Assembly: GCA_038215705.1 (NCBI GenBank)
Contig: JBBQQQ010000001.1
Coordinates: 98,630-162,629 of the forward strand
Direction: 5' to 3'
DNA: 64,000 nt
Origin: Bacteroidia bacterium
Lineage (GTDB): Bacteria > Bacteroidota > Bacteroidia > AKYH767-A > OLB10
Shown here: positions 57,919-63,172 of the stretch, in pieces
How the letters are laid out: each line of letters begins with the position of its first letter
Numbering within the stretch: position 1 is the stretch's first letter
Notes under the pieces: generated by a model
Databases searched by the model: none
What the model saw: the letters and a program-made list of their open reading frames with translations, nothing else
Told to the model about the DNA's origin: nothing
Position numbers and translations under genes: made by a program

Positions 57919-58662
57919 TTAATGCATTAACGGTGTAGGTTCCGGTAACAGTGTAAATGGATGCTTCATCTTCGAAGTAATTTCACAAATGATTTTGTTT
58001 TCGTGATTTATCCCGCAATTCTTCAACGATATATAAATCCATTCCAAATTGTTATTTTCAAAGGCATATTCCCGGGAAGGATTAGAAAATATTGAAAGAC
58101 TGCTTGTAATTTCAATTACCGGCAGATCGACTCTTGGTAATAATTTGCCATCAATGGTGGTTGTTGCAATTAAATAGTCGCCGGAAGTGGTTGGAAATAT
58201 AACTATTTCAGGGAGTTCCACGACCGGAAGCAAGTTGCCGTTAATTGCAGTAGCAATTACCAAATGATTGAGGGGCAGCGCTGATTCAATCTCTATCATA
58301 GGTAAATCCGCTATAGCTATTACTTCTCCATTTACTATATAGGCGGGTAGTTTCCGCATTCCTGACTGCTCACCGGTTATTTCAACTACCGGAAGATTTA
58401 CTACCAGTATATAAGTTCCATTGTGAAGAATACCTGATGAAAGCACGGATCCGGGATGTGTGCTGATAATCTCTACCTCAGGTAAATCAACTACCGGAAT
58501 GTAAATGCCCTTGTAAAGGATTGCTTTCACAACAGATGTTTCACTTTTAGAATTTTCAATACCTGGTACCGATTCCCTTGAAGGAGTCATTACCGCTGCA
58601 GAAACTGACTGGATCAGAACTAGTGTCAGGAAAGATGCGAGTAACATTCGGAAAGTTTTCAT
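57919..58662 (-). CDS. Secreted repeat protein of unknown function with five ~37-aa 'hNGxhhPVVDLPEVEI' repeats
   Basis: 247 aa with a signal peptide. The repeats are ILYKGIYIPVVDLPEVEIISTHPGS, ILHNGTYILVVNLPVVEITGEQSG, IVNGEVIAIADLPMIEIESALP, INGNLLPVVELPEIVIFPTTSG and IDGKLLPRVDLPVIEITSSLS. Confidence 0.45.
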   Translation of the reverse strand: MKTFRMLLASFLTLVLIQSVSAAVMTPSRESVPGIENSKSETSVVKAILYKGIYIPVVDLPEVEIISTHPGSVLSSGILHNGTYILVVNLPVVEITGEQSGMRKLPAYIVNGEVIAIADLPMIEIESALPLNHLVIATAINGNLLPVVELPEIVIFPTTSGDYLIATTTIDGKLLPRVDLPVIEITSSLSIFSNPSREYAFENNNLEWIYISLKNCGINHENKIICEITSKMKHPFTLLPEPTPLMH

Positions 58663-58901: not shown

Positions 58902-59396
58902 ATGATTGACCTCAAATTCTTAAAGGCCAATGCGAAGAAAATTGCAGCGGAGAACGGGAAAATGGTCCGGCGGTTAAAAAACCGGCCTGTTCCCGGAATT
59001 GATGAAGAAGTTGAATTGCTGGATCAATGGGCATTTTCAAAAATCAATTGCCTTTCATGTGGAAATTGCTGCAAGACCATCAGCCCTGTTTTTAAAGAGC
59101 GTGACATTGTCAGGTTGTCTGACCATTTCAGACTACGCCCCGGAGCTTTTGTTGAGAAATACCTGTTTATGGATGATGAAGGTGACTATGTATTAAAATC
59201 ATCACCTTGTCCGTTCCTGGAGTCGGATAATCAATGCAGTGTTTATGATAATCGCCCTTCAGCATGCCGGAGCTATCCGCATACTGGGACTTTACGATTC
59301 TCAAAAAGTATGGATTTATTCGTTAAAAATAGTGCGGTTTGTCCTGCAGTCTATGAAATTGCAGAAGAGTTAAAGAAAAAGTATGGAAAAGCGTAA
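58902..59396 (+). CDS. YkgJ-family (UPF0153) cysteine-cluster protein
   Basis: 164 aa. N-terminal CLSCGNCC (CxxCxxCC) and C-terminal SPCPFLE...CSVYDNRPSACRSYP are the family hallmarks. Confidence 0.7.
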   Translation: MIDLKFLKANAKKIAAENGKMVRRLKNRPVPGIDEEVELLDQWAFSKINCLSCGNCCKTISPVFKERDIVRLSDHFRLRPGAFVEKYLFMDDEGDYVLKSSPCPFLESDNQCSVYDNRPSACRSYPHTGTLRFSKSMDLFVKNSAVCPAVYEIAEELKKKYGKA

Positions 59397-59526: not shown

Positions 59527-60780
59527 ATGGTTCAGTCAGGAAATTCGAACATTATTACCCATCCAAGGCTAATTTCATTACCGCATTCACCCGTTCATGA
59601 AATTGAAGTATTTACTTCGATTAGTGATGTACCTGCCGGTGAATGGGAGGTATGTATTACTGATGCGCACCTGTTTTTATCCATTGATTATCTTAAAACA
59701 GCGGAATCCAGTTCCCTTCCGGGGATGCAGTTTCGATATGCAATTTTGCGAAATGGTGGTCAGCCGGTGGCAATACTATATTTTCAACTGGTTAATTTGT
59801 CGGATACCGGTTTAGGAGGAATTCTGAGCCTGGAAGAATATGGCGGACTTGCCGGATCCTTGTCTACCCGTATCAACGACATATTATTTAGTCCTGGTAA
59901 AGATAAAGCCTCTTATATTCTCGTTTGCGGTAATCTGCTTGTTAGCGGTGAACATGGAGTAGCTGCTGTTAGTCATGAAGAATTTAAATATGCTGTTGAG
60001 GCCATCTCACCCATAAAAAAAATAATTGCACAAACACTTCCTTCTACAGCACGGTTGGTTGCTTTTATGGTTAAAGATTTTTATGATCCTTTAAATGCAA
60101 TTGCAAGAACTATTTTAAAACGCGATTATTTTTTACTGAATACTGATCCTGAAATGATTTTTGAAGTCTCACCTGAGTGGAAATCTTTTGATGATTATAA
60201 GGCAGCTTTATCATCAAAGTACCGGGTGCGAACCAATAATGTATTGGGTAAATTAGGACGGGTTGTTATTAAAGAACTGAGTAATGATGAAATCATAAGT
60301 AAATCGAAAGAGCTGTATGCTTTGAACGATCATGTGGTTAAAAAAGCACCTGTCAAACTCGCAAGGCCTTCAGAAGATTATTTTTTGAACTTAAAAAAAA
60401 CGTACGGAAATAATTACCGCATCAATGGTTTTTATCTCGATGATAAATTAATTGCTTTCACAAGCGGATTATGGAATGAGGTTCATTATGAAGCCCATTA
60501 TATCGGGTTAAATTATGAACTCAATCAGCAGTACAGCCTGTATCAGAATATTCTGTATGCCTACATTAATGATGCAATCGTATGTAAATCGCAACGGCTC
60601 TTTTTCGGAAGAACGGCACTTGAAATTAAAAGTACCACAGGTGCCAGGCCACATCATCTGGCATGTTATTTCAGGTTTGCAAACCGGATCCTCAACACGC
60701 TGGCTAAACCTCTTGTGAGCAGTACCGGTCCTAAAGACTGGATTCCAAGGGATCCTTTTAAAAATAATCAGGAAAACTGA
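59527..60780 (+). CDS. Hypothetical protein, possibly a FemAB/BioF2-like (Acetyltransf_6) GNAT-fold acyltransferase
   Basis: 417 aa. The length and the two-lobed hydrophobic/charged pattern are suggestive, but no diagnostic motif was verified by eye. Confidence 0.3.
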   Translation: MVQSGNSNIITHPRLISLPHSPVHEIEVFTSISDVPAGEWEVCITDAHLFLSIDYLKTAESSSLPGMQFRYAILRNGGQPVAILYFQLVNLSDTGLGGILSLEEYGGLAGSLSTRINDILFSPGKDKASYILVCGNLLVSGEHGVAAVSHEEFKYAVEAISPIKKIIAQTLPSTARLVAFMVKDFYDPLNAIARTILKRDYFLLNTDPEMIFEVSPEWKSFDDYKAALSSKYRVRTNNVLGKLGRVVIKELSNDEIISKSKELYALNDHVVKKAPVKLARPSEDYFLNLKKTYGNNYRINGFYLDDKLIAFTSGLWNEVHYEAHYIGLNYELNQQYSLYQNILYAYINDAIVCKSQRLFFGRTALEIKSTTGARPHHLACYFRFANRILNTLAKPLVSSTGPKDWIPRDPFKNNQEN

Positions 60781-60844
60781 ATCCTAAGGTAAACTAATTT
60801 CCGGTGAACATTTTAGTTAAATTTGCTGGTATGATCCTGTATTC

Positions 60845-61411
60845 ATGAAATACCGTTTACTTTTATTTCTCTCAGTTGTTTTAGTTTCCTGCCAAAGAAC
60901 TAACTATGTGAATCTGGATACTATTGAATTGCCTGATCATAATGGTAGTTTTGTTGATGTGGCTGAGCTTGCTCAAAATTATATTTCGGTTTTTATATTC
61001 ATGTCTCCAGATTGCCCGCTCTGCATTAGCTATACTAAAACCATAAAGGATCTTCAACAAAAATTTCTGTCCGATAGCGTTAAATTTTTTACTGTGTTTC
61101 CCGGGAAGCTATACAGTAATGACGAAATTAATGAGTTCCGTGATATGTATGATTTCAAGCTTATATGTTTACAGGACAGGGACCTCACTTTAACAAAATT
61201 ATTGCATGCTGAAATAACCCCTGAAGCGGTTGTAGTAAACAAGGAAGAGATCGCATATTCCGGCGCAATTAATAACTGGATGTATGAAACAGGGAAGAAA
61301 CGAACTGTGATTACTGAAAATTACCTGGAAGATGCACTCTCAGCACTCATCAATGGGGGAAAGCCTGATCCCGGTAATACAGAAGCTGTTGGATGTTATA
61401 TTGAGCTATGA
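60845..61411 (+). CDS. Thioredoxin-fold lipoprotein with CxxC (CPLC) motif (TlpA/ResA/Sco-like)
   Basis: 188 aa. Lipobox VLVSCQ. FIFMSPDCPLCISY places the CxxC at the N-terminus of a helix after a beta-strand, as in thioredoxin folds. The stop overlaps the start of the next gene (ATGA). Confidence 0.55.
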   Translation: MKYRLLLFLSVVLVSCQRTNYVNLDTIELPDHNGSFVDVAELAQNYISVFIFMSPDCPLCISYTKTIKDLQQKFLSDSVKFFTVFPGKLYSNDEINEFRDMYDFKLICLQDRDLTLTKLLHAEITPEAVVVNKEEIAYSGAINNWMYETGKKRTVITENYLEDALSALINGGKPDPGNTEAVGCYIEL

Positions 61412-62811
61412 TGAAAAGATTGCTCCTGAATCGTTTATTTTTTATCGTATGTACGATAATCGTTAGTGCTGTGGGTCTTACAGGCTGTGATAATAACGAT
61501 GAAAAGGATATAACATTCACAGGACACATTGCTCCAATACTATATACTAACTGCACTTCCTGCCATCGTCCGGGGGAAGCAGGACCATTCACCCTTATAA
61601 CCTATACTGATGTCAGGAAAAAAGCAAAAACTATTGTTCGTGTTACACAATCAGGTATCATGCCTCCCTGGCCGGCAGATGCAGAATACCAGCAGTATGT
61701 GGGTCAGAAAGTATTGAGTGAAGAAGAAAAAGAGCTGATCAAAAAATGGTATGATCAGGGTTGTAAAGAAGGTGATGCAGACCTGCTGCCACCGCTGCCC
61801 GATTTTCCGGATGGCTCACAACTTGGAAAACCTGACCGGGTTATTATAATGGAGGAGCCTTATAGTATCGCCGGTGATAATAAGGACCGGTTCATGGTTA
61901 TTAAAATTCCATATGAACTTGAAAAAGATACATTTTTAAGAATGGTAGAATATGTTCCGGGTAACCGAAAGTTATCGCATCATGTTAACGGACATATCAT
62001 TCAATACTCTGATCACGAAAAAGCAAATGTTTTTACCGGCCCCAGGTTTGTCAACAGGGAGGAAGCAGGCACTCTTGATTCCAGTTACAGGTATCTTCAG
62101 TTGCTGAATGATGACGGTTCTTATCCATTGTTGACCCCTTCGGTATTCAATTACCTGCCGGGTGTAATACCCCAGATTTATCCTGAGGGAATAGGAGGAT
62201 ACCGGTTGAAAAAAAAGGGAGCCATTCTTATGCGAGATCTTCACTATGGCCCTTCGCCTGTACAACAGGAAGACAAAGCAAAAGTGAATTTATTTTTTTC
62301 AAAGGAACCACCCAAGCGTCCTTTTATGGAAACACAATTGGGAACCCTGGGCATATCAGAAATTGTTCCTCCGTTACTAATTCCAGCTGACACAGTGATG
62401 AAATTTGTTACAAGGGCAGTAATCCATAATGACATTTCTCTGGTAACCATTAATCCGCATATGCACTTGCTTGGTAAAAGCTTTCTTGCCTATGCAATCA
62501 CCCGTGACAATGATACAATCCCACTTGTACGGATTAAAAATTGGGATTTCAGATGGCAGTATTTTTACACTTTTAAAACTATTCTCCGAATCCCTGCAGG
62601 AAGTGTAATCGTGGCAGAAGGAGTATTCGATAACACCAAAAATAACCCTAACAATCCTTTTTCTCCTCCCCGAGAAATCACGGGCCTGGGAGGAAGCATG
62701 AAGACAACGGATGAAATGTTTCAATTGATTTTAACGTTTCTTCCTTATCAGGCGGGCGATGAAAAAATAAGTCTTGAAAATGTATCACCATTGGAAGGCG
62801 GATTACCCTGA
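61408..62811 (+). CDS. Fusion protein: mono-haem cytochrome c domain (CxxCH) + copper type II ascorbate-dependent monooxygenase (PHM/DBH)-like two-domain module
   Basis: 467 aa. Signal peptide/lipobox LTGCDN. HIAPILYTNCTSCHRPGEAGPF...MPPW is a haem c binding motif in a PSCyt-like context. Downstream ...SHHVNGH... is the CuH-site His cluster, and NPHMHLLGK (HxH) plus ...GGSMKTTDEM (Met) are the CuM-site pattern. Confidence 0.55.
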   Translation: MMKRLLLNRLFFIVCTIIVSAVGLTGCDNNDEKDITFTGHIAPILYTNCTSCHRPGEAGPFTLITYTDVRKKAKTIVRVTQSGIMPPWPADAEYQQYVGQKVLSEEEKELIKKWYDQGCKEGDADLLPPLPDFPDGSQLGKPDRVIIMEEPYSIAGDNKDRFMVIKIPYELEKDTFLRMVEYVPGNRKLSHHVNGHIIQYSDHEKANVFTGPRFVNREEAGTLDSSYRYLQLLNDDGSYPLLTPSVFNYLPGVIPQIYPEGIGGYRLKKKGAILMRDLHYGPSPVQQEDKAKVNLFFSKEPPKRPFMETQLGTLGISEIVPPLLIPADTVMKFVTRAVIHNDISLVTINPHMHLLGKSFLAYAITRDNDTIPLVRIKNWDFRWQYFYTFKTILRIPAGSVIVAEGVFDNTKNNPNNPFSPPREITGLGGSMKTTDEMFQLILTFLPYQAGDEKISLENVSPLEGGLP

Positions 62812-62878: not shown

Positions 62879-63172
62879 ATGAGATTAACCGCAATTCTTA
62901 AAAAAATATTTTTGGTACTTGCCCTGGTACTACCTTTTGCTTTAATGGCCCAGGATGATTCCAAACCCAGCAAAAAGCAAAAGAAAGCAGAACTTAAAAA
63001 AGAGCAGCGGGTTCAGGATACCAAAAAGGCAGAGATCAAGGGACAAAAACGTCATATGAAATTGCAAGAGAAACAAACCCGTAAACGCATGAAGAAAAAC
63101 AAGAAAAAAGGTTCCGCCTATGTTTCGAGGCGTCCGGGTTTTTTTCAGCGACTGACGAAATCTTTCCGGTGA
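62879..63172 (+). CDS. Small secreted lysine-rich protein
   Basis: 97 aa with a signal peptide. About 35% Lys/Arg. No family recognised. Confidence 0.35.
   Translation: MRLTAILKKIFLVLALVLPFALMAQDDSKPSKKQKKAELKKEQRVQDTKKAEIKGQKRHMKLQEKQTRKRMKKNKKKGSAYVSRRPGFFQRLTKSFR

What the first reader, a model, noticed from the sequence alone, without database searches (positions are those of the whole stretch)
60845..62811. Two-gene overlapping operon: CxxC thioredoxin-fold lipoprotein + cytochrome c fused to a PHM/DBH-like copper monooxygenase
The 467-aa product has a canonical haem c attachment site (CTSCH) near its N-terminus. This is followed by what reads as both halves of a copper type II ascorbate-dependent monooxygenase fold: an HH..H CuH cluster, then an HxH...M CuM site. 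In eukaryotic PHM/DBH the electrons come from ascorbate. A covalently attached c-type haem in the same polypeptide suggests an ascorbate-independent, periplasmic electron-relay version of this chemistry.

The upstream gene overlaps it by 4 nt and encodes a CPLC thioredoxin-like lipoprotein. That protein could be a dedicated reductant for apocytochrome maturation or a Sco-like copper chaperone.

Bacterial PHM-like monooxygenases are essentially uncharacterised. The substrate here, whether a peptide C-terminus, a lipid or a glycan, is unknown.
Basis: partly seen in the sequence, partly recalled or inferred. Interest (0 to 1): 0.7.

Follow-up and report, generated by a model that had tools for sequence, protein, structure and literature searches.

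The report
Haem-c-fused bacterial PHM-like copper monooxygenase
Two overlapping genes encode a lipoprotein that joins a c-type cytochrome to a copper monooxygenase of the animal peptide-amidating / noradrenaline-synthesis type, plus a conserved two-cysteine thioredoxin-fold partner; the family is very large in bacteria and I found no paper on it, so its substrate and electron source are open questions.

Summary
ORFs 60845-61411 (188 aa) and 61408-62811 (467 aa) overlap by ATGA, and both begin with lipoprotein signals.

**The 467-aa protein**
- A profile alignment to rat PHM places H191/H192/H279 on CuH (H107/H108/H172) and H351/H353/M437 on CuM (H242/H244/M314).
- These six residues, plus C49-x-x-C52-H53 and M85, are conserved in 95-96 of 96 diverse relatives.
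- PHM's peptidyl-glycine clamp (R240, Y318) is absent, so this is not an amidating enzyme.
- The family is large: 12,217 50%-identity clusters. Many relatives carry a T9SS secretion tail.

**The partner**
- It sits next to the enzyme in 51 of the 86 loci then in hand and in five of eight distant loci. In at least seven proteins it is fused to the enzyme.
- It is not a classic CxxC thioredoxin. Only C57 and the C-terminal C184 are invariant.
- It belongs to the uncharacterised 2CVB/2YWI/3U5R subfamily.

**Open points**
- Electron flow from haem to copper is inferred, not shown.
- The partner's role (maturation factor or reductant) and the substrate are unresolved.
- Ten literature searches found no paper on the family.

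The parts
60818..60825 (+). TAAATTTG, a possible Bacteroidota-type -7 promoter box, 20 nt upstream of the ATG of the first gene
   Evidence: Sequence read. The match to the Bacteroidetes TAnnTTTG consensus is from my own knowledge and was not tested. The sigma-70 scan is no better than shuffled sequence.
60845..61411 (+). Partner gene: a 188-aa lipoprotein with a thioredoxin/peroxiredoxin-like fold, of the 2CVB/2YWI/3U5R subfamily
   Evidence: ORF. Pfam Redoxin 27.1 and AhpC-TSA 27.1 bits, just above their gathering scores. AF2 pLDDT 91.8. Foldseek to 2CVB/2YWO, 3U5R and 2YWI gives TM 0.73-0.79 over 176-180 columns. The profile hits 2YWI at E 1.6e-24.
60845..60892 (+). Signal peptide and lipobox LVSC (Cys16) of the partner
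   Evidence: An 'SC' at the same position recurs in most homologues. The public gene call (167 aa, P0271) omits it.
61013..61024 (+). C57-P-L-C60 active-site motif. C57 and P58 are conserved; C60 is not.
   Evidence: C57 is present in 50 of 50 loci and 31 of 31 homologues. Position 60 is Ser in 12 of 50 loci and Ala/Ser/Val in the fusion proteins.
61391..61396 (+). Invariant G183-C184 in the C-terminal tail (VGCYIEL-stop); the likely redox partner of C57
   Evidence: Present in 50 of 50 loci and 31 of 31 homologues. The same IGC motif is present in PDB 2YWI and 2CVB. PMC3091736 treats the C-terminal Cys of 2YWI as a candidate resolving Cys.
61408..61411 (+). ATGA overlap of stop and start codons (translational coupling)
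61408..62811 (+). 467-aa lipoprotein: cytochrome c domain followed by PHM/DBH-like CuH and CuM domains
61408..61488 (+). Signal peptide and lipobox LTGC (Cys27)
   Evidence: C27 is invariant in 31 close homologues. More distant relatives instead have an ordinary signal peptide plus a T9SS C-terminal domain.
61504..61779 (+). Mono-haem cytochrome c domain (residues about 33-124), with C49-T-S-C52-H53 at 61552-61566 and the probable distal ligand M85 (MPPW) at 61660-61671
   Evidence: CxxCH is present in 96 of 96 relatives and M85 in 95 of 96. The domain alone hits Cytochrome_CBB3 and Haem_bd in 35 of 35 members. All 23 PDB hits of its profile are c-type cytochromes, the best being the hydrazine synthase alpha haem domain at E 1.7e-4. 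The model shows helices at 37-48, 66-71, 73-82 and 105-116.
61825..62307 (+). CuH-type beta-sandwich domain (residues about 140-300). Ligands are H191/H192 (61978-61983) and H279 (62242-62244).
   Evidence: hhalign to rat PHM: H191/H192 = H107/H108 and H279 = H172. Conserved in 95, 95 and 96 of 96 relatives.
62320..62748 (+). CuM-type beta-sandwich domain (residues about 305-447). Ligands are H351/H353 (62458-62466) and M437 (62716-62718). Also carries the family motif W379-D-F-R-W-Q384 (62542-62559).
   Evidence: Pfam PF03712 at 28.2 bits over residues 335-413. hhalign: H351/H353 = H242/H244, M437 = M314, Q384 = Q272 and E436 = E313. Conserved in 95-96 of 96 relatives.

Best explanation
**Shown**
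- The 467-aa product is exported with a lipoprotein signal.
- It consists of a mono-haem c-type cytochrome domain (C49-x-x-C52-H53, with M85 as probable sixth ligand) followed by the two beta-sandwich domains of the PHM/DBH family of non-coupled binuclear copper monooxygenases.
- All six copper ligands are in place.

**Inferred mechanism**
- The enzyme sits in the periplasm or on the envelope, where there is no ascorbate.
- The tethered haem takes single electrons from an external donor and passes them to CuH.
- CuH reduces CuM, and CuM activates O2 and hydroxylates a C-H bond.
- The substrate is unknown. It is not a C-terminal glycine, because PHM's carboxylate clamp is missing.

**The partner**
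- The 188-aa partner is translationally coupled to the enzyme.
- It is a thioredoxin-fold lipoprotein whose conserved redox pair is C57 plus the C-terminal C184.
- It is a dedicated accessory of this enzyme family.
- I think it most likely acts in the periplasm while the holo-enzyme is made. It could keep the CxxCH cysteines reduced for haem attachment, and/or handle copper.
- The reason is that these are the enzyme's only conserved cysteines, and at least one T9SS-secreted relative keeps a partner that stays in the periplasm.
For: **Fold**
- AF2 model pLDDT 86.6.
- The 31 best Foldseek hits are all PHM or DBH, from E 3.7e-12.

**Copper ligands**
- hhalign of 96 diverse relatives against rat PHM (1SDW_A): probability 97.4%, E 1.5e-11, with every ligand aligned.
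- These positions are conserved in 95-96 of 96 relatives.

**Haem**
- CxxCH is invariant and M85 is present in 95 of 96 relatives.
- Cytochrome c family hits are reported.

**Export**
- A lipobox is present.

**Partner linkage**
- Adjacent in 51 of the first 86 loci fetched.
- Immediately upstream in five of eight distant loci: L087, L089, L092, L093 and L095. Fused to the enzyme in a sixth (L091) and one gene away in a seventh (L090).
- Fused to the enzyme in P0124, P0142 (twice), P0189, P0207, P0217, P0234, more weakly P0236, and a third gene in L091.

**Maturation role**
- The enzyme's only conserved cysteines are the haem cysteines.
- In L095 the enzyme carries a T9SS tail. Its 169-aa partner has only a Sec signal.
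Against: - No biochemistry was done. Haem attachment, copper binding, O2 activation and the direction of electron flow are all inferred.
- I could not read the model coordinates, so ligand equivalence rests on profile alignment, not on 3D superposition. The haem-to-CuH distance is unknown.
- A maturation factor fused to its client is unusual, and the domain order of the fusions (Trx, cytochrome c, CuH, CuM) reads like an electron-transfer chain. Both points favour the reductant model.
- Cytochrome c maturation systems already carry their own thioredoxin.
- The partner lacks the strict CxxC of ResA/CcmG.
- The secreted-enzyme argument rests on one clear locus (L095).
- A tight clade of 26 homologues has no partner within 6 kb.
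Confidence: 0.5

Rival explanations
1. The enzyme is the same, but the partner is the catalytic electron source. Reducing equivalents would pass from cytoplasmic thioredoxin through CcdA/DsbD to the partner's C57/C184 dithiol, then to the haem, then to CuH and CuM. The dithiol's two electrons would replace the two ascorbates used per PHM turnover. This would resemble the N-terminal Trx domain that feeds periplasmic MsrA/B in PilB.
For: - Natural fusions carry the partner N-terminal to the cytochrome domain, so the domain order matches the proposed electron path.
- The pairing is deeply conserved across relatives of only 30-40% identity.
- The best (non-significant) NCBIfam hit of the partner is the Trx part of the MsrA/MsrB fusion.
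- PilB's N-terminal domain, 2H30, is among the fold matches.
Against: - In L095 the enzyme is T9SS-exported while the partner has no export tail, so the two would be separated after secretion.
- A 26-member clade lacks the partner in cis.
- One fusion (P0189) has the partner at the C-terminus.
- Thiol-to-haem-c electron transfer is uncommon (my own knowledge).
Confidence: 0.25
2. The partner is a peroxiredoxin-like protein, with C57 as the peroxidatic Cys and C184 as the resolving Cys. It would either remove H2O2 leaking from uncoupled copper turnover or be linked to a peroxide-driven (peroxygenase) reaction of the copper enzyme.
For: - Pfam AhpC-TSA and Redoxin hits.
- JGI names some homologues 'peroxiredoxin'.
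- The solved relative 2YWI has been treated as an AhpC/TSA-family protein with a C-terminal resolving-type Cys (PMC3091736).
- The second Cys of CxxC is dispensable.
Against: - The peroxiredoxin signature is missing. The residue three positions before C57 is Ser/Ala/Leu, not a conserved Thr.
- No Arg is invariant in the family.
- Beyond its own subfamily, the closest folds are mostly ResA/TlpA-type oxidoreductases, with only a few peroxiredoxins (Bcp, AhpE) lower in the list.
Confidence: 0.08
3. The protein has the PHM fold and binds metals but is not a substrate-hydroxylating monooxygenase. It could instead be an oxidase, an electron-transfer protein or a copper-handling protein of the envelope.
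For: - No substrate, product or pathway context could be found. Neighbouring genes outside the pair are not conserved.
- PHM's substrate-binding residues are not conserved.
Against: - Both copper sites are strictly retained, including the CuM methionine and the equivalents of PHM Q272 and E313, in 95-96 of 96 relatives.
- That set of residues has no known role other than O2 activation and inter-copper electron transfer (established knowledge of PHM/DBH).
- Pocket residues vary between subfamilies, as expected for enzymes with diversified substrates.
Confidence: 0.1
4. It is a true bacterial orthologue of PHM that hydroxylates C-terminal glycine for peptide amidation.
For: PHM is the best structural match.
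Against: - The carboxylate clamp is absent: R240 corresponds to N349 (variable A/S/F/N in the family), Y318 to I441 and N316 to Q439.
- No PAL-like lyase gene is nearby.
- Sequence identity to PHM is 13-15%.
Confidence: 0.03

Closest known systems
Peptidylglycine alpha-hydroxylating monooxygenase (PHM, catalytic core of rat/human PAM; PDB 1PHM, 1SDW)
   Same: - CuH ligands HH...H and CuM ligands HxH...M align one to one, as do Q272 and E313.
   Different: - An N-terminal cytochrome c domain and a lipid anchor are added.
- None of PHM's disulfides can form: this protein has no conserved Cys outside CxxCH.
- The peptidyl-Gly clamp R240/Y318 is absent.
- There are 23- and 14-residue insertions between ligands.
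- It is bacterial and periplasmic, so ascorbate is unlikely to be available.
- Sequence identity is 13-15%.
Dopamine beta-hydroxylase (human DBH, PDB 4ZEL) and its relatives TBH and MOXD1
   Same: - Like DBH, it carries an extra N-terminal domain ahead of the copper domains.
   Different: - DBH's extra domain is a DOMON domain that is not known to carry haem in DBH (my own knowledge). Here the extra domain is a covalent haem c domain.
- There is no dimerisation domain.
Cellobiose dehydrogenase cytochrome domain feeding LPMO copper (a functional analogy only, from my own knowledge)
   Same: A haem domain delivers single electrons to a mononuclear copper oxygenase site outside the cytoplasm. Many relatives of this protein are T9SS-secreted, as LPMOs are secreted.
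   Different: - The folds are unrelated.
- Haem b versus haem c.
- The donor is a separate protein rather than fused.
- No evidence here points to a polysaccharide substrate.
TTHA0593 (PDB 2CVB oxidised, 2YWO reduced), G. kaustophilus 2YWI and S. meliloti SMc02350 (3U5R): uncharacterised thioredoxin-like proteins
   Same: - The partner matches them over its full length (TM 0.73-0.79; profile E 1.6e-24 to 5.7e-19).
- This includes the Cys-Pro at the helix start and the C-terminal I/V-G-C motif.
   Different: - 2CVB and 2YWI read C-N-H-C-P, so their CxxC ends at the residue equivalent to C57. Here the extra Cys lies three residues after it (C57-P-L-C60) and is dispensable.
- This partner is a lipoprotein tied to a cytochrome c-copper enzyme.
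- Whether those solved proteins have such neighbours was not examined.
ResA / CcmG / TlpA periplasmic thiol-disulfide oxidoreductases (cytochrome c and CuA maturation)
   Same: - Membrane- or lipid-anchored thioredoxin fold with a cis-Pro.
- They are the next-best fold matches (ResA E about 1e-8).
- Plausibly the same job: reducing an apocytochrome CxxCH.
   Different: - They depend on a strict CxxC. Here the second Cys is lost in 12 of 50 loci and in the fusions.
- A C-terminal Cys is invariant instead.
Haem domain of hydrazine synthase alpha (5C2V) and Geobacter PccH (4RLR)
   Same: They are the best sequence-profile matches of the N-terminal domain, around the conserved [DN]-I-x-P-I-x(3)-C-x-x-C-H start. 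17 of 35 domain sequences hit Pfam PccH.
   Different: The matches are weak (E 1.7e-4 and 0.012) and cover mainly the haem-binding helix. The MPPW-x-(A/P)-D motif is specific to this family and to Pfam Haem_bd.

Membership tests
PHM/DBH copper type II monooxygenases (Pfam PF01082 + PF03712) | Two consecutive beta-sandwich domains with the PHM topology | tested here: met
   [not shown]
PHM/DBH copper type II monooxygenases (Pfam PF01082 + PF03712) | CuH site: His-His plus a distal His | tested here: met
   H191/H192/H279 align to PHM H107/H108/H172. Conserved in 95, 95 and 96 of 96 relatives. The equivalence is by alignment, not 3D superposition.
PHM/DBH copper type II monooxygenases (Pfam PF01082 + PF03712) | CuM site: His-x-His plus Met | tested here: met
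   H351/H353/M437 align to H242/H244/M314. Conserved in 95, 96 and 95 of 96 relatives.
PHM/DBH copper type II monooxygenases (Pfam PF01082 + PF03712) | Sequence-profile membership of the C-terminal domain (PF03712) | tested here: met
   28.2 bits against a gathering score of 23. 73 of 96 relatives hit at E<=0.01.
PHM/DBH copper type II monooxygenases (Pfam PF01082 + PF03712) | Sequence-profile membership of the N-terminal domain (PF01082) | tested here: not met
   No hit for this protein at E<=1. 23 of 96 relatives hit at E<=0.01, best 5.6e-12. The domain is recovered by hhalign and by fold.
PHM/DBH copper type II monooxygenases (Pfam PF01082 + PF03712) | Copper binding, O2-dependent hydroxylation, ascorbate as reductant | not testable with these tools
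   Needs purified protein.
PHM proper (peptide-amidating enzyme) | Clamp for the C-terminal carboxylate of peptidyl-Gly (R240, Y318, N316) | tested here: not met
   The equivalents are N349, I441 and Q439. All three columns are variable across the family.
c-type cytochromes (class I-like, His/Met) | CxxCH haem attachment motif in an exported protein | tested here: met
   C49, C52 and H53 are present in 96 of 96 relatives. A lipoprotein signal peptide is present.
c-type cytochromes (class I-like, His/Met) | Distal Met ligand | tested here: inconclusive
   M85 sits exactly 36 residues after C49 in nearly all members and is present in 95 of 96. Ligation itself was not shown.
c-type cytochromes (class I-like, His/Met) | Profile membership (Pfam Cytochrome_CBB3 / Cytochrom_C / Haem_bd) | tested here: inconclusive
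   - This protein scores 19.9 bits full-length and 24.2 bits as an isolated domain, both below the gathering score of 27.
- Relatives P0122 (34.1) and P0142 (37.1) exceed it.
- 35 of 35 domain sequences hit at E<=1, and all 23 PDB profile hits are cytochromes c.
Canonical CxxC thioredoxin-like oxidoreductases (ResA/CcmG/TlpA) | Thioredoxin fold with cis-Pro | tested here: met
   Foldseek hits to ResA, DsbE, DsbF and others. P126 is invariant.
Canonical CxxC thioredoxin-like oxidoreductases (ResA/CcmG/TlpA) | Both cysteines of CxxC conserved | tested here: not met
   Motif counts are CPLS 11 and CPAS 1 of 50 loci. The fusions read CPLA, CPIS and CPAV.
2CVB/2YWI/3U5R thioredoxin-like subfamily | Full-length fold, Cys-Pro at the active site and a C-terminal Gly-Cys | tested here: met
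   TM 0.73-0.79. Profile E 1.6e-24 to 5.7e-19 with both motifs aligned. C57, G183 and C184 are invariant.
Peroxiredoxins | PxxxT/SxxC motif and a conserved catalytic Arg | tested here: not met
   The -3 position is S 29, A 12, L 7 of 50. No invariant Arg.
Sco1/SenC copper chaperones | CxxxC plus a distal His; Pfam SCO1-SenC | tested here: not met
   No SCO1-SenC hit at E<=1. No CxxxC and no invariant His. No Sco structure among the top 50 fold hits.
Bacterial lipoproteins | Signal peptide ending in a lipobox [LVI][ASTVI][GAS]C | tested here: met
   LVSC16 and LTGC27. Conserved in close homologues. Judged by eye; no predictor was run.

The most novel reading that the evidence does not exclude
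A widespread bacterial envelope and extracellular enzyme system in which a thiol-redox protein, a covalently tethered haem c and a PHM-type CuH/CuM pair form a self-contained, ascorbate-independent electron chain for C-H hydroxylation. Lipoprotein forms would work in the periplasm and T9SS-secreted forms outside the cell. The substrates would be proteins, peptides or polymers rather than glycine-extended hormones, as hinted by TPR, PKD, Ig and Kunitz fusions. That would be a new class of secreted oxidative enzyme, comparable in concept to the CDH-LPMO pair.
Probability: 0.25. Interest if true: 0.85.

Novelty: new variant of a known kind. Interest (0 to 1): 0.66.

Why it matters
- **Scope of the enzyme class.** PHM and DBH are the enzymes for peptide amidation and noradrenaline synthesis. 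To my knowledge they are treated as ascorbate-dependent eukaryotic enzymes. Here the same two-copper site is kept intact in more than 12,000 bacterial sequence clusters, always wired to a c-type haem.
- **A tractable model.** How an electron crosses from CuH to CuM is still debated. A disulfide-free enzyme that can be expressed in bacteria and has a built-in optical redox probe could make that step directly measurable.
- **Biocatalysis.** Such enzymes could hydroxylate C-H bonds without ascorbate.
- **New biology.** The family points to an unknown oxidative modification in the envelope or surroundings of Bacteroidota. The secreted relatives may be a new kind of extracellular oxidase.
- **The partner.** The conserved pairing gives a first functional context to a thioredoxin-like subfamily that has been solved four times by structural genomics (2CVB, 2YWO, 2YWI, 3U5R) but never assigned a role.

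Tried and rejected
- **Direct sequence search of PDB.** The protein and its close-homologue profile gave nothing. The link to PHM needed hhalign with a diverse profile and fold search.
- **The search for related loci with the diverse alignment A2.** It failed because no stretch was conserved enough. The close alignment A1 worked but is biased to Bacteroidota relatives by its two search patterns.
- **The afdb50 fold library.** It was not available, so UniProt names and taxonomy of structural relatives were not obtained.
- **Literature.** Ten searches found no paper on this family or on bacterial haem-fused PHM-like enzymes. The terms covered PF03712, Cu2_monoox, DUF6436, PHM-like/DBH-like, T9SS, TTHA0593 and non-coupled binuclear copper. 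The library is open-access only, so this is not proof of absence.
- **A wider operon.** I considered and rejected one.
  - The GNAT/FemAB-like 417-aa gene and the CxxCxxCC gene upstream are syntenic only in close relatives and lie at variable distance.
  - The 97-aa lysine-rich gene downstream stays with SMC, not with the enzyme (L056).
- **Other reasons for loci without a partner.** Their neighbours are unrelated housekeeping genes. These loci form a separate tight clade.
- **Sco-like chaperone and true peroxiredoxin readings of the partner.** Both fail their defining motifs (see the membership table).
- **Antisense ORFs inside the two genes (62-115 aa).** I treated these as spurious, because conservation follows the + strand frames.
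- **Sigma-70 promoter and terminator scan.** It was no better than shuffled sequence.


Full report
**1. The observation**

One search lists two + strand ORFs, 60845..61411 (188 aa) and 61408..62811 (467 aa). The junction reads GAG CTA TGA TGA AAA, so the start ATG (61408-61410) and the stop TGA (61409-61411) share ATGA.

Both products begin with a hydrophobic signal followed by a lipobox, LVSC16 and LTGC27.

The public gene call for the first gene starts at V22 (167 aa). That drops the signal. The longer ORF is better, because the signal and lipobox Cys recur in homologues.

Antisense ORFs within the region are short (62-115 aa). I treated them as noise.

**2. The 467-aa protein: sequence evidence**

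- Pfam gives Cu2_monoox_C above its gathering score (28.2 vs 23, residues 335-413).
- Cytochrome_CBB3 is below its threshold (19.9 vs 27).
- There is no hit to the N-terminal PHM domain PF01082.
- NCBIfam has nothing.
- Direct PDB sequence searches found nothing.

**3. The 467-aa protein: fold**

An AlphaFold2 model built on 31 homologues has mean pLDDT 86.6 and pTM 0.80. It shows a helical N-terminal region (helices 37-48, 66-71, 73-82, 105-116) followed by two beta-rich domains.

- Foldseek against PDB: the first 31 hits are all PHM or human DBH (E 3.7e-12 to 2.7e-9, about 335 aligned columns, both domains). The next hits are viral jelly-roll capsids near E 1e-4.

**4. Metal ligands**

I obtained the true sequence of rat PHM chain 1SDW_A from the PDB sequence search and checked its numbering. 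I then compared it with a profile of 96 diverse relatives (30-50% identical to the window protein).

hhalign gives probability 97.4% and E 1.5e-11 over 246 columns. The equivalences are:

| Window residue | PHM residue | Role |
|---|---|---|
| H191, H192 | H107, H108 | CuH |
| H279 (HYG in both) | H172 | CuH |
| H351, H353 (HxHxLGK in both) | H242, H244 | CuM |
| M437 (DEM in both) | M314 | CuM |
| Q384 | Q272 | conserved in PHM |
| E436 | E313 | conserved in PHM |

Across the 96 relatives these positions are conserved in 95-96 sequences.

PHM's clamp for the peptidyl-glycine carboxylate is not kept. R240 corresponds to N349, Y318 to I441 and N316 to Q439, and these columns vary across the family. 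The protein has no conserved cysteine outside CxxCH, so PHM's disulfides are absent.

I could not read model coordinates. Ligand equivalence is therefore by alignment, not by 3D superposition.

**5. The haem domain**

- C49, C52 and H53 are invariant (96 of 96). M85, in the MPPW motif, is present in 95 of 96. It lies exactly 36 residues after the first Cys in almost every member.
- Cut out as a domain, 35 of 35 sequences hit Pfam Cytochrome_CBB3 and Haem_bd at E<=1 (best 1.4e-6 and 3.5e-8), and 17 hit PccH.
- Every one of the 23 PDB hits of the domain profile is a c-type cytochrome. The best are the hydrazine synthase alpha haem domain (E 1.7e-4) and Geobacter PccH.
- Two relatives exceed the Cytochrome_CBB3 gathering score (34.1 and 37.1 bits).
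- One relative sits next to CcmE and CcmF.

**6. Size and shape of the family**

- The word-indexed search returned more than 3,440 hits. The sources name them 'hypothetical', 'cytochrome c', 'monooxygenase' or 'copper type II ascorbate-dependent monooxygenase-like'.
- The exhaustive HMMER search found 12,217 50%-identity representatives at E<=1e-3 and 1,609 at E<=1e-30.
- Among 96 representatives, Pfam hits were as follows:
  - Cu2_monoox_C: 73
  - Cu2_monooxygen: 23
  - Cytochrome_CBB3: 37
  - T9SS C-terminal sorting domain (Por_Secre_tail): 37
- Longer relatives add TPR, PKD, Ig, EF-hand or Kunitz domains.
- The window's clade is anchored by a lipobox instead. C27 is invariant in close homologues, but only 10 of 96 distant relatives have a lipobox-like motif.
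- The 80 genome loci recovered are almost all uncultured Bacteroidota MAGs. The closest is 86% identical.

**7. The partner: linkage**

- A homologue of the 188-aa gene is adjacent, mostly upstream and overlapping, in 51 of the 86 loci in hand at that point.
- It is immediately upstream of the enzyme in five of eight distant loci examined (L087, L089, L092, L093, L095). It is fused to the enzyme in a sixth (L091) and lies one gene away in a seventh (L090).
- It is fused to the enzyme in at least seven proteins: P0124, P0142 (two Trx-cytochrome-PHM units), P0189 (C-terminal), P0207, P0217 and P0234, plus another gene in L091. P0236 carries a weaker, degenerate copy.
- Loci without it mostly fall in one tight clade (26 loci, 64% mean identity among the partner-less loci, no partner within 6 kb). 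MAGs carrying the same genus label appear in both groups, which suggests paralogues.

**8. The partner: nature**

- Pfam Redoxin and AhpC-TSA are just above threshold. DUF6436 is below it.
- The invariant residues are C57, D111, P126 (cis-Pro), Y138, G140, G183 and C184.
- The second Cys of the CPLC motif is Ser in 12 of 50 loci and Ala/Ser/Val in the fusions. The C-terminal Gly-Cys is present in 50 of 50.
- The AF2 model (pLDDT 91.8) matches over its full length four structural-genomics entries: 2CVB/2YWO, 3U5R and 2YWI (TM 0.73-0.79). It matches ResA-type oxidoreductases only over the core.
- The profile hits the same entries at E 1.6e-24 to 5.7e-19, with both the Cys-Pro and the C-terminal IGC aligned.
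- One paper used 2YWI as a template because of its C-terminal 'resolving-type' cysteine (PMC3091736).
- Peroxiredoxin and Sco signatures are absent.

The conserved chemistry, however, is a C57...C184 pair.

**9. Mechanism: what is shown and what is inferred**

Shown by computation:
- the domain architecture;
- conservation of all haem and copper ligands;
- export signals;
- a deeply conserved, sometimes fused, two-cysteine partner.

Inferred:
- The haem replaces ascorbate as the one-electron feed to CuH, and CuM then activates O2 as in PHM/DBH.
- The substrate is unknown. Genes beyond the pair are not conserved.

For the partner, two models remain.
- *Maturation.* This model is favoured by two facts. 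The enzyme's only conserved cysteines are the haem cysteines. In L095 the enzyme is T9SS-exported, while its partner has only a Sec signal and no sorting domain.
- *Catalytic reductant.* This model is favoured by the fusions, whose domain order (Trx, cytochrome c, CuH, CuM) reads like an electron path.

I rate maturation slightly ahead. A single experiment, holo-enzyme yield with and without the partner, would decide.

**10. Comparison and novelty**

The protein works like, and structurally belongs to, the PHM/DBH superfamily. It is not a PHM orthologue.

Ten literature searches in the held library found no description of a haem-fused bacterial PHM-like enzyme, nor of its partner's function. 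Automated annotation already flags one domain or the other. The family is therefore a known unknown rather than unseen.

I classify it as a new variant of a known kind, of above-average interest.

Noticed in passing
window 57919-58662 (-): A 247-aa secreted protein with no Pfam hit. It contains five copies of a [DNE]-LP-x-[VI]-[EV]-I motif at an exact 30-residue period, at residues 59, 89, 119, 149 and 179. It is conserved in the closest relative, L007 (E 5e-121).
   Followed up: partly
window 60845-60907: The public gene call for the partner starts at V22 (167 aa, P0271). That removes the signal peptide and lipobox Cys16, which are conserved in homologues. The start is probably mis-annotated.
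   Followed up: yes
window 62879-63172 (+): A 97-aa protein with a signal peptide and a very basic mature part (28 K/R and 7 D/E in 73 residues). It lies downstream of the enzyme gene in about a dozen loci. In L056 it stays with the SMC gene instead, so it is probably not part of the module.
   Followed up: partly
window 58902-59396 (+) and 59527-60780 (+): A CxxCxxCC (PF03692) protein and a 417-aa protein with weak GNAT/FemAB-like hits lie upstream. They are syntenic with the pair only in the closest relatives, and the GNAT-like gene lies at variable distance.
   Followed up: partly
L091 4171-7926 (P0142) and L091 11284-12926: A 1,251-aa protein made of two complete Trx-cytochrome c-PHM units in tandem. 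A further Trx-cytochrome-PHM fusion gene lies on the same contig.
   Followed up: partly
L090 2283-7576: One partner gene is followed by three PHM-like paralogues (439, 421 and 437 aa) interleaved with TPR proteins. This suggests one partner can serve several enzymes.
   Followed up: no
L095 3465-5593: A T9SS-tailed relative (530 aa, Por_Secre_tail) is preceded by a 169-aa partner that has only a Sec signal peptide, a CPVC motif and a C-terminal VGCYITFQ. The same contig also encodes an EF-hand protein, CotH and VTC-domain proteins.
   Followed up: partly
L088 333-6332: A 443-aa relative lies directly downstream of the cytochrome c maturation genes CcmE and CcmF, with two unrelated genes in between.
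   Followed up: no
Loci L019-L084 without a partner (e.g. L047, L039, L058): A tight clade of 26 homologues has no partner gene within 6 kb, with 64% mean identity among the partner-less loci. It is embedded in housekeeping synteny: a metallophosphoesterase-like gene, a ferredoxin-like gene and an unidentified 371-aa gene. MAGs with the same genus label also occur in the partnered group, so these are probably paralogues.
   Followed up: partly
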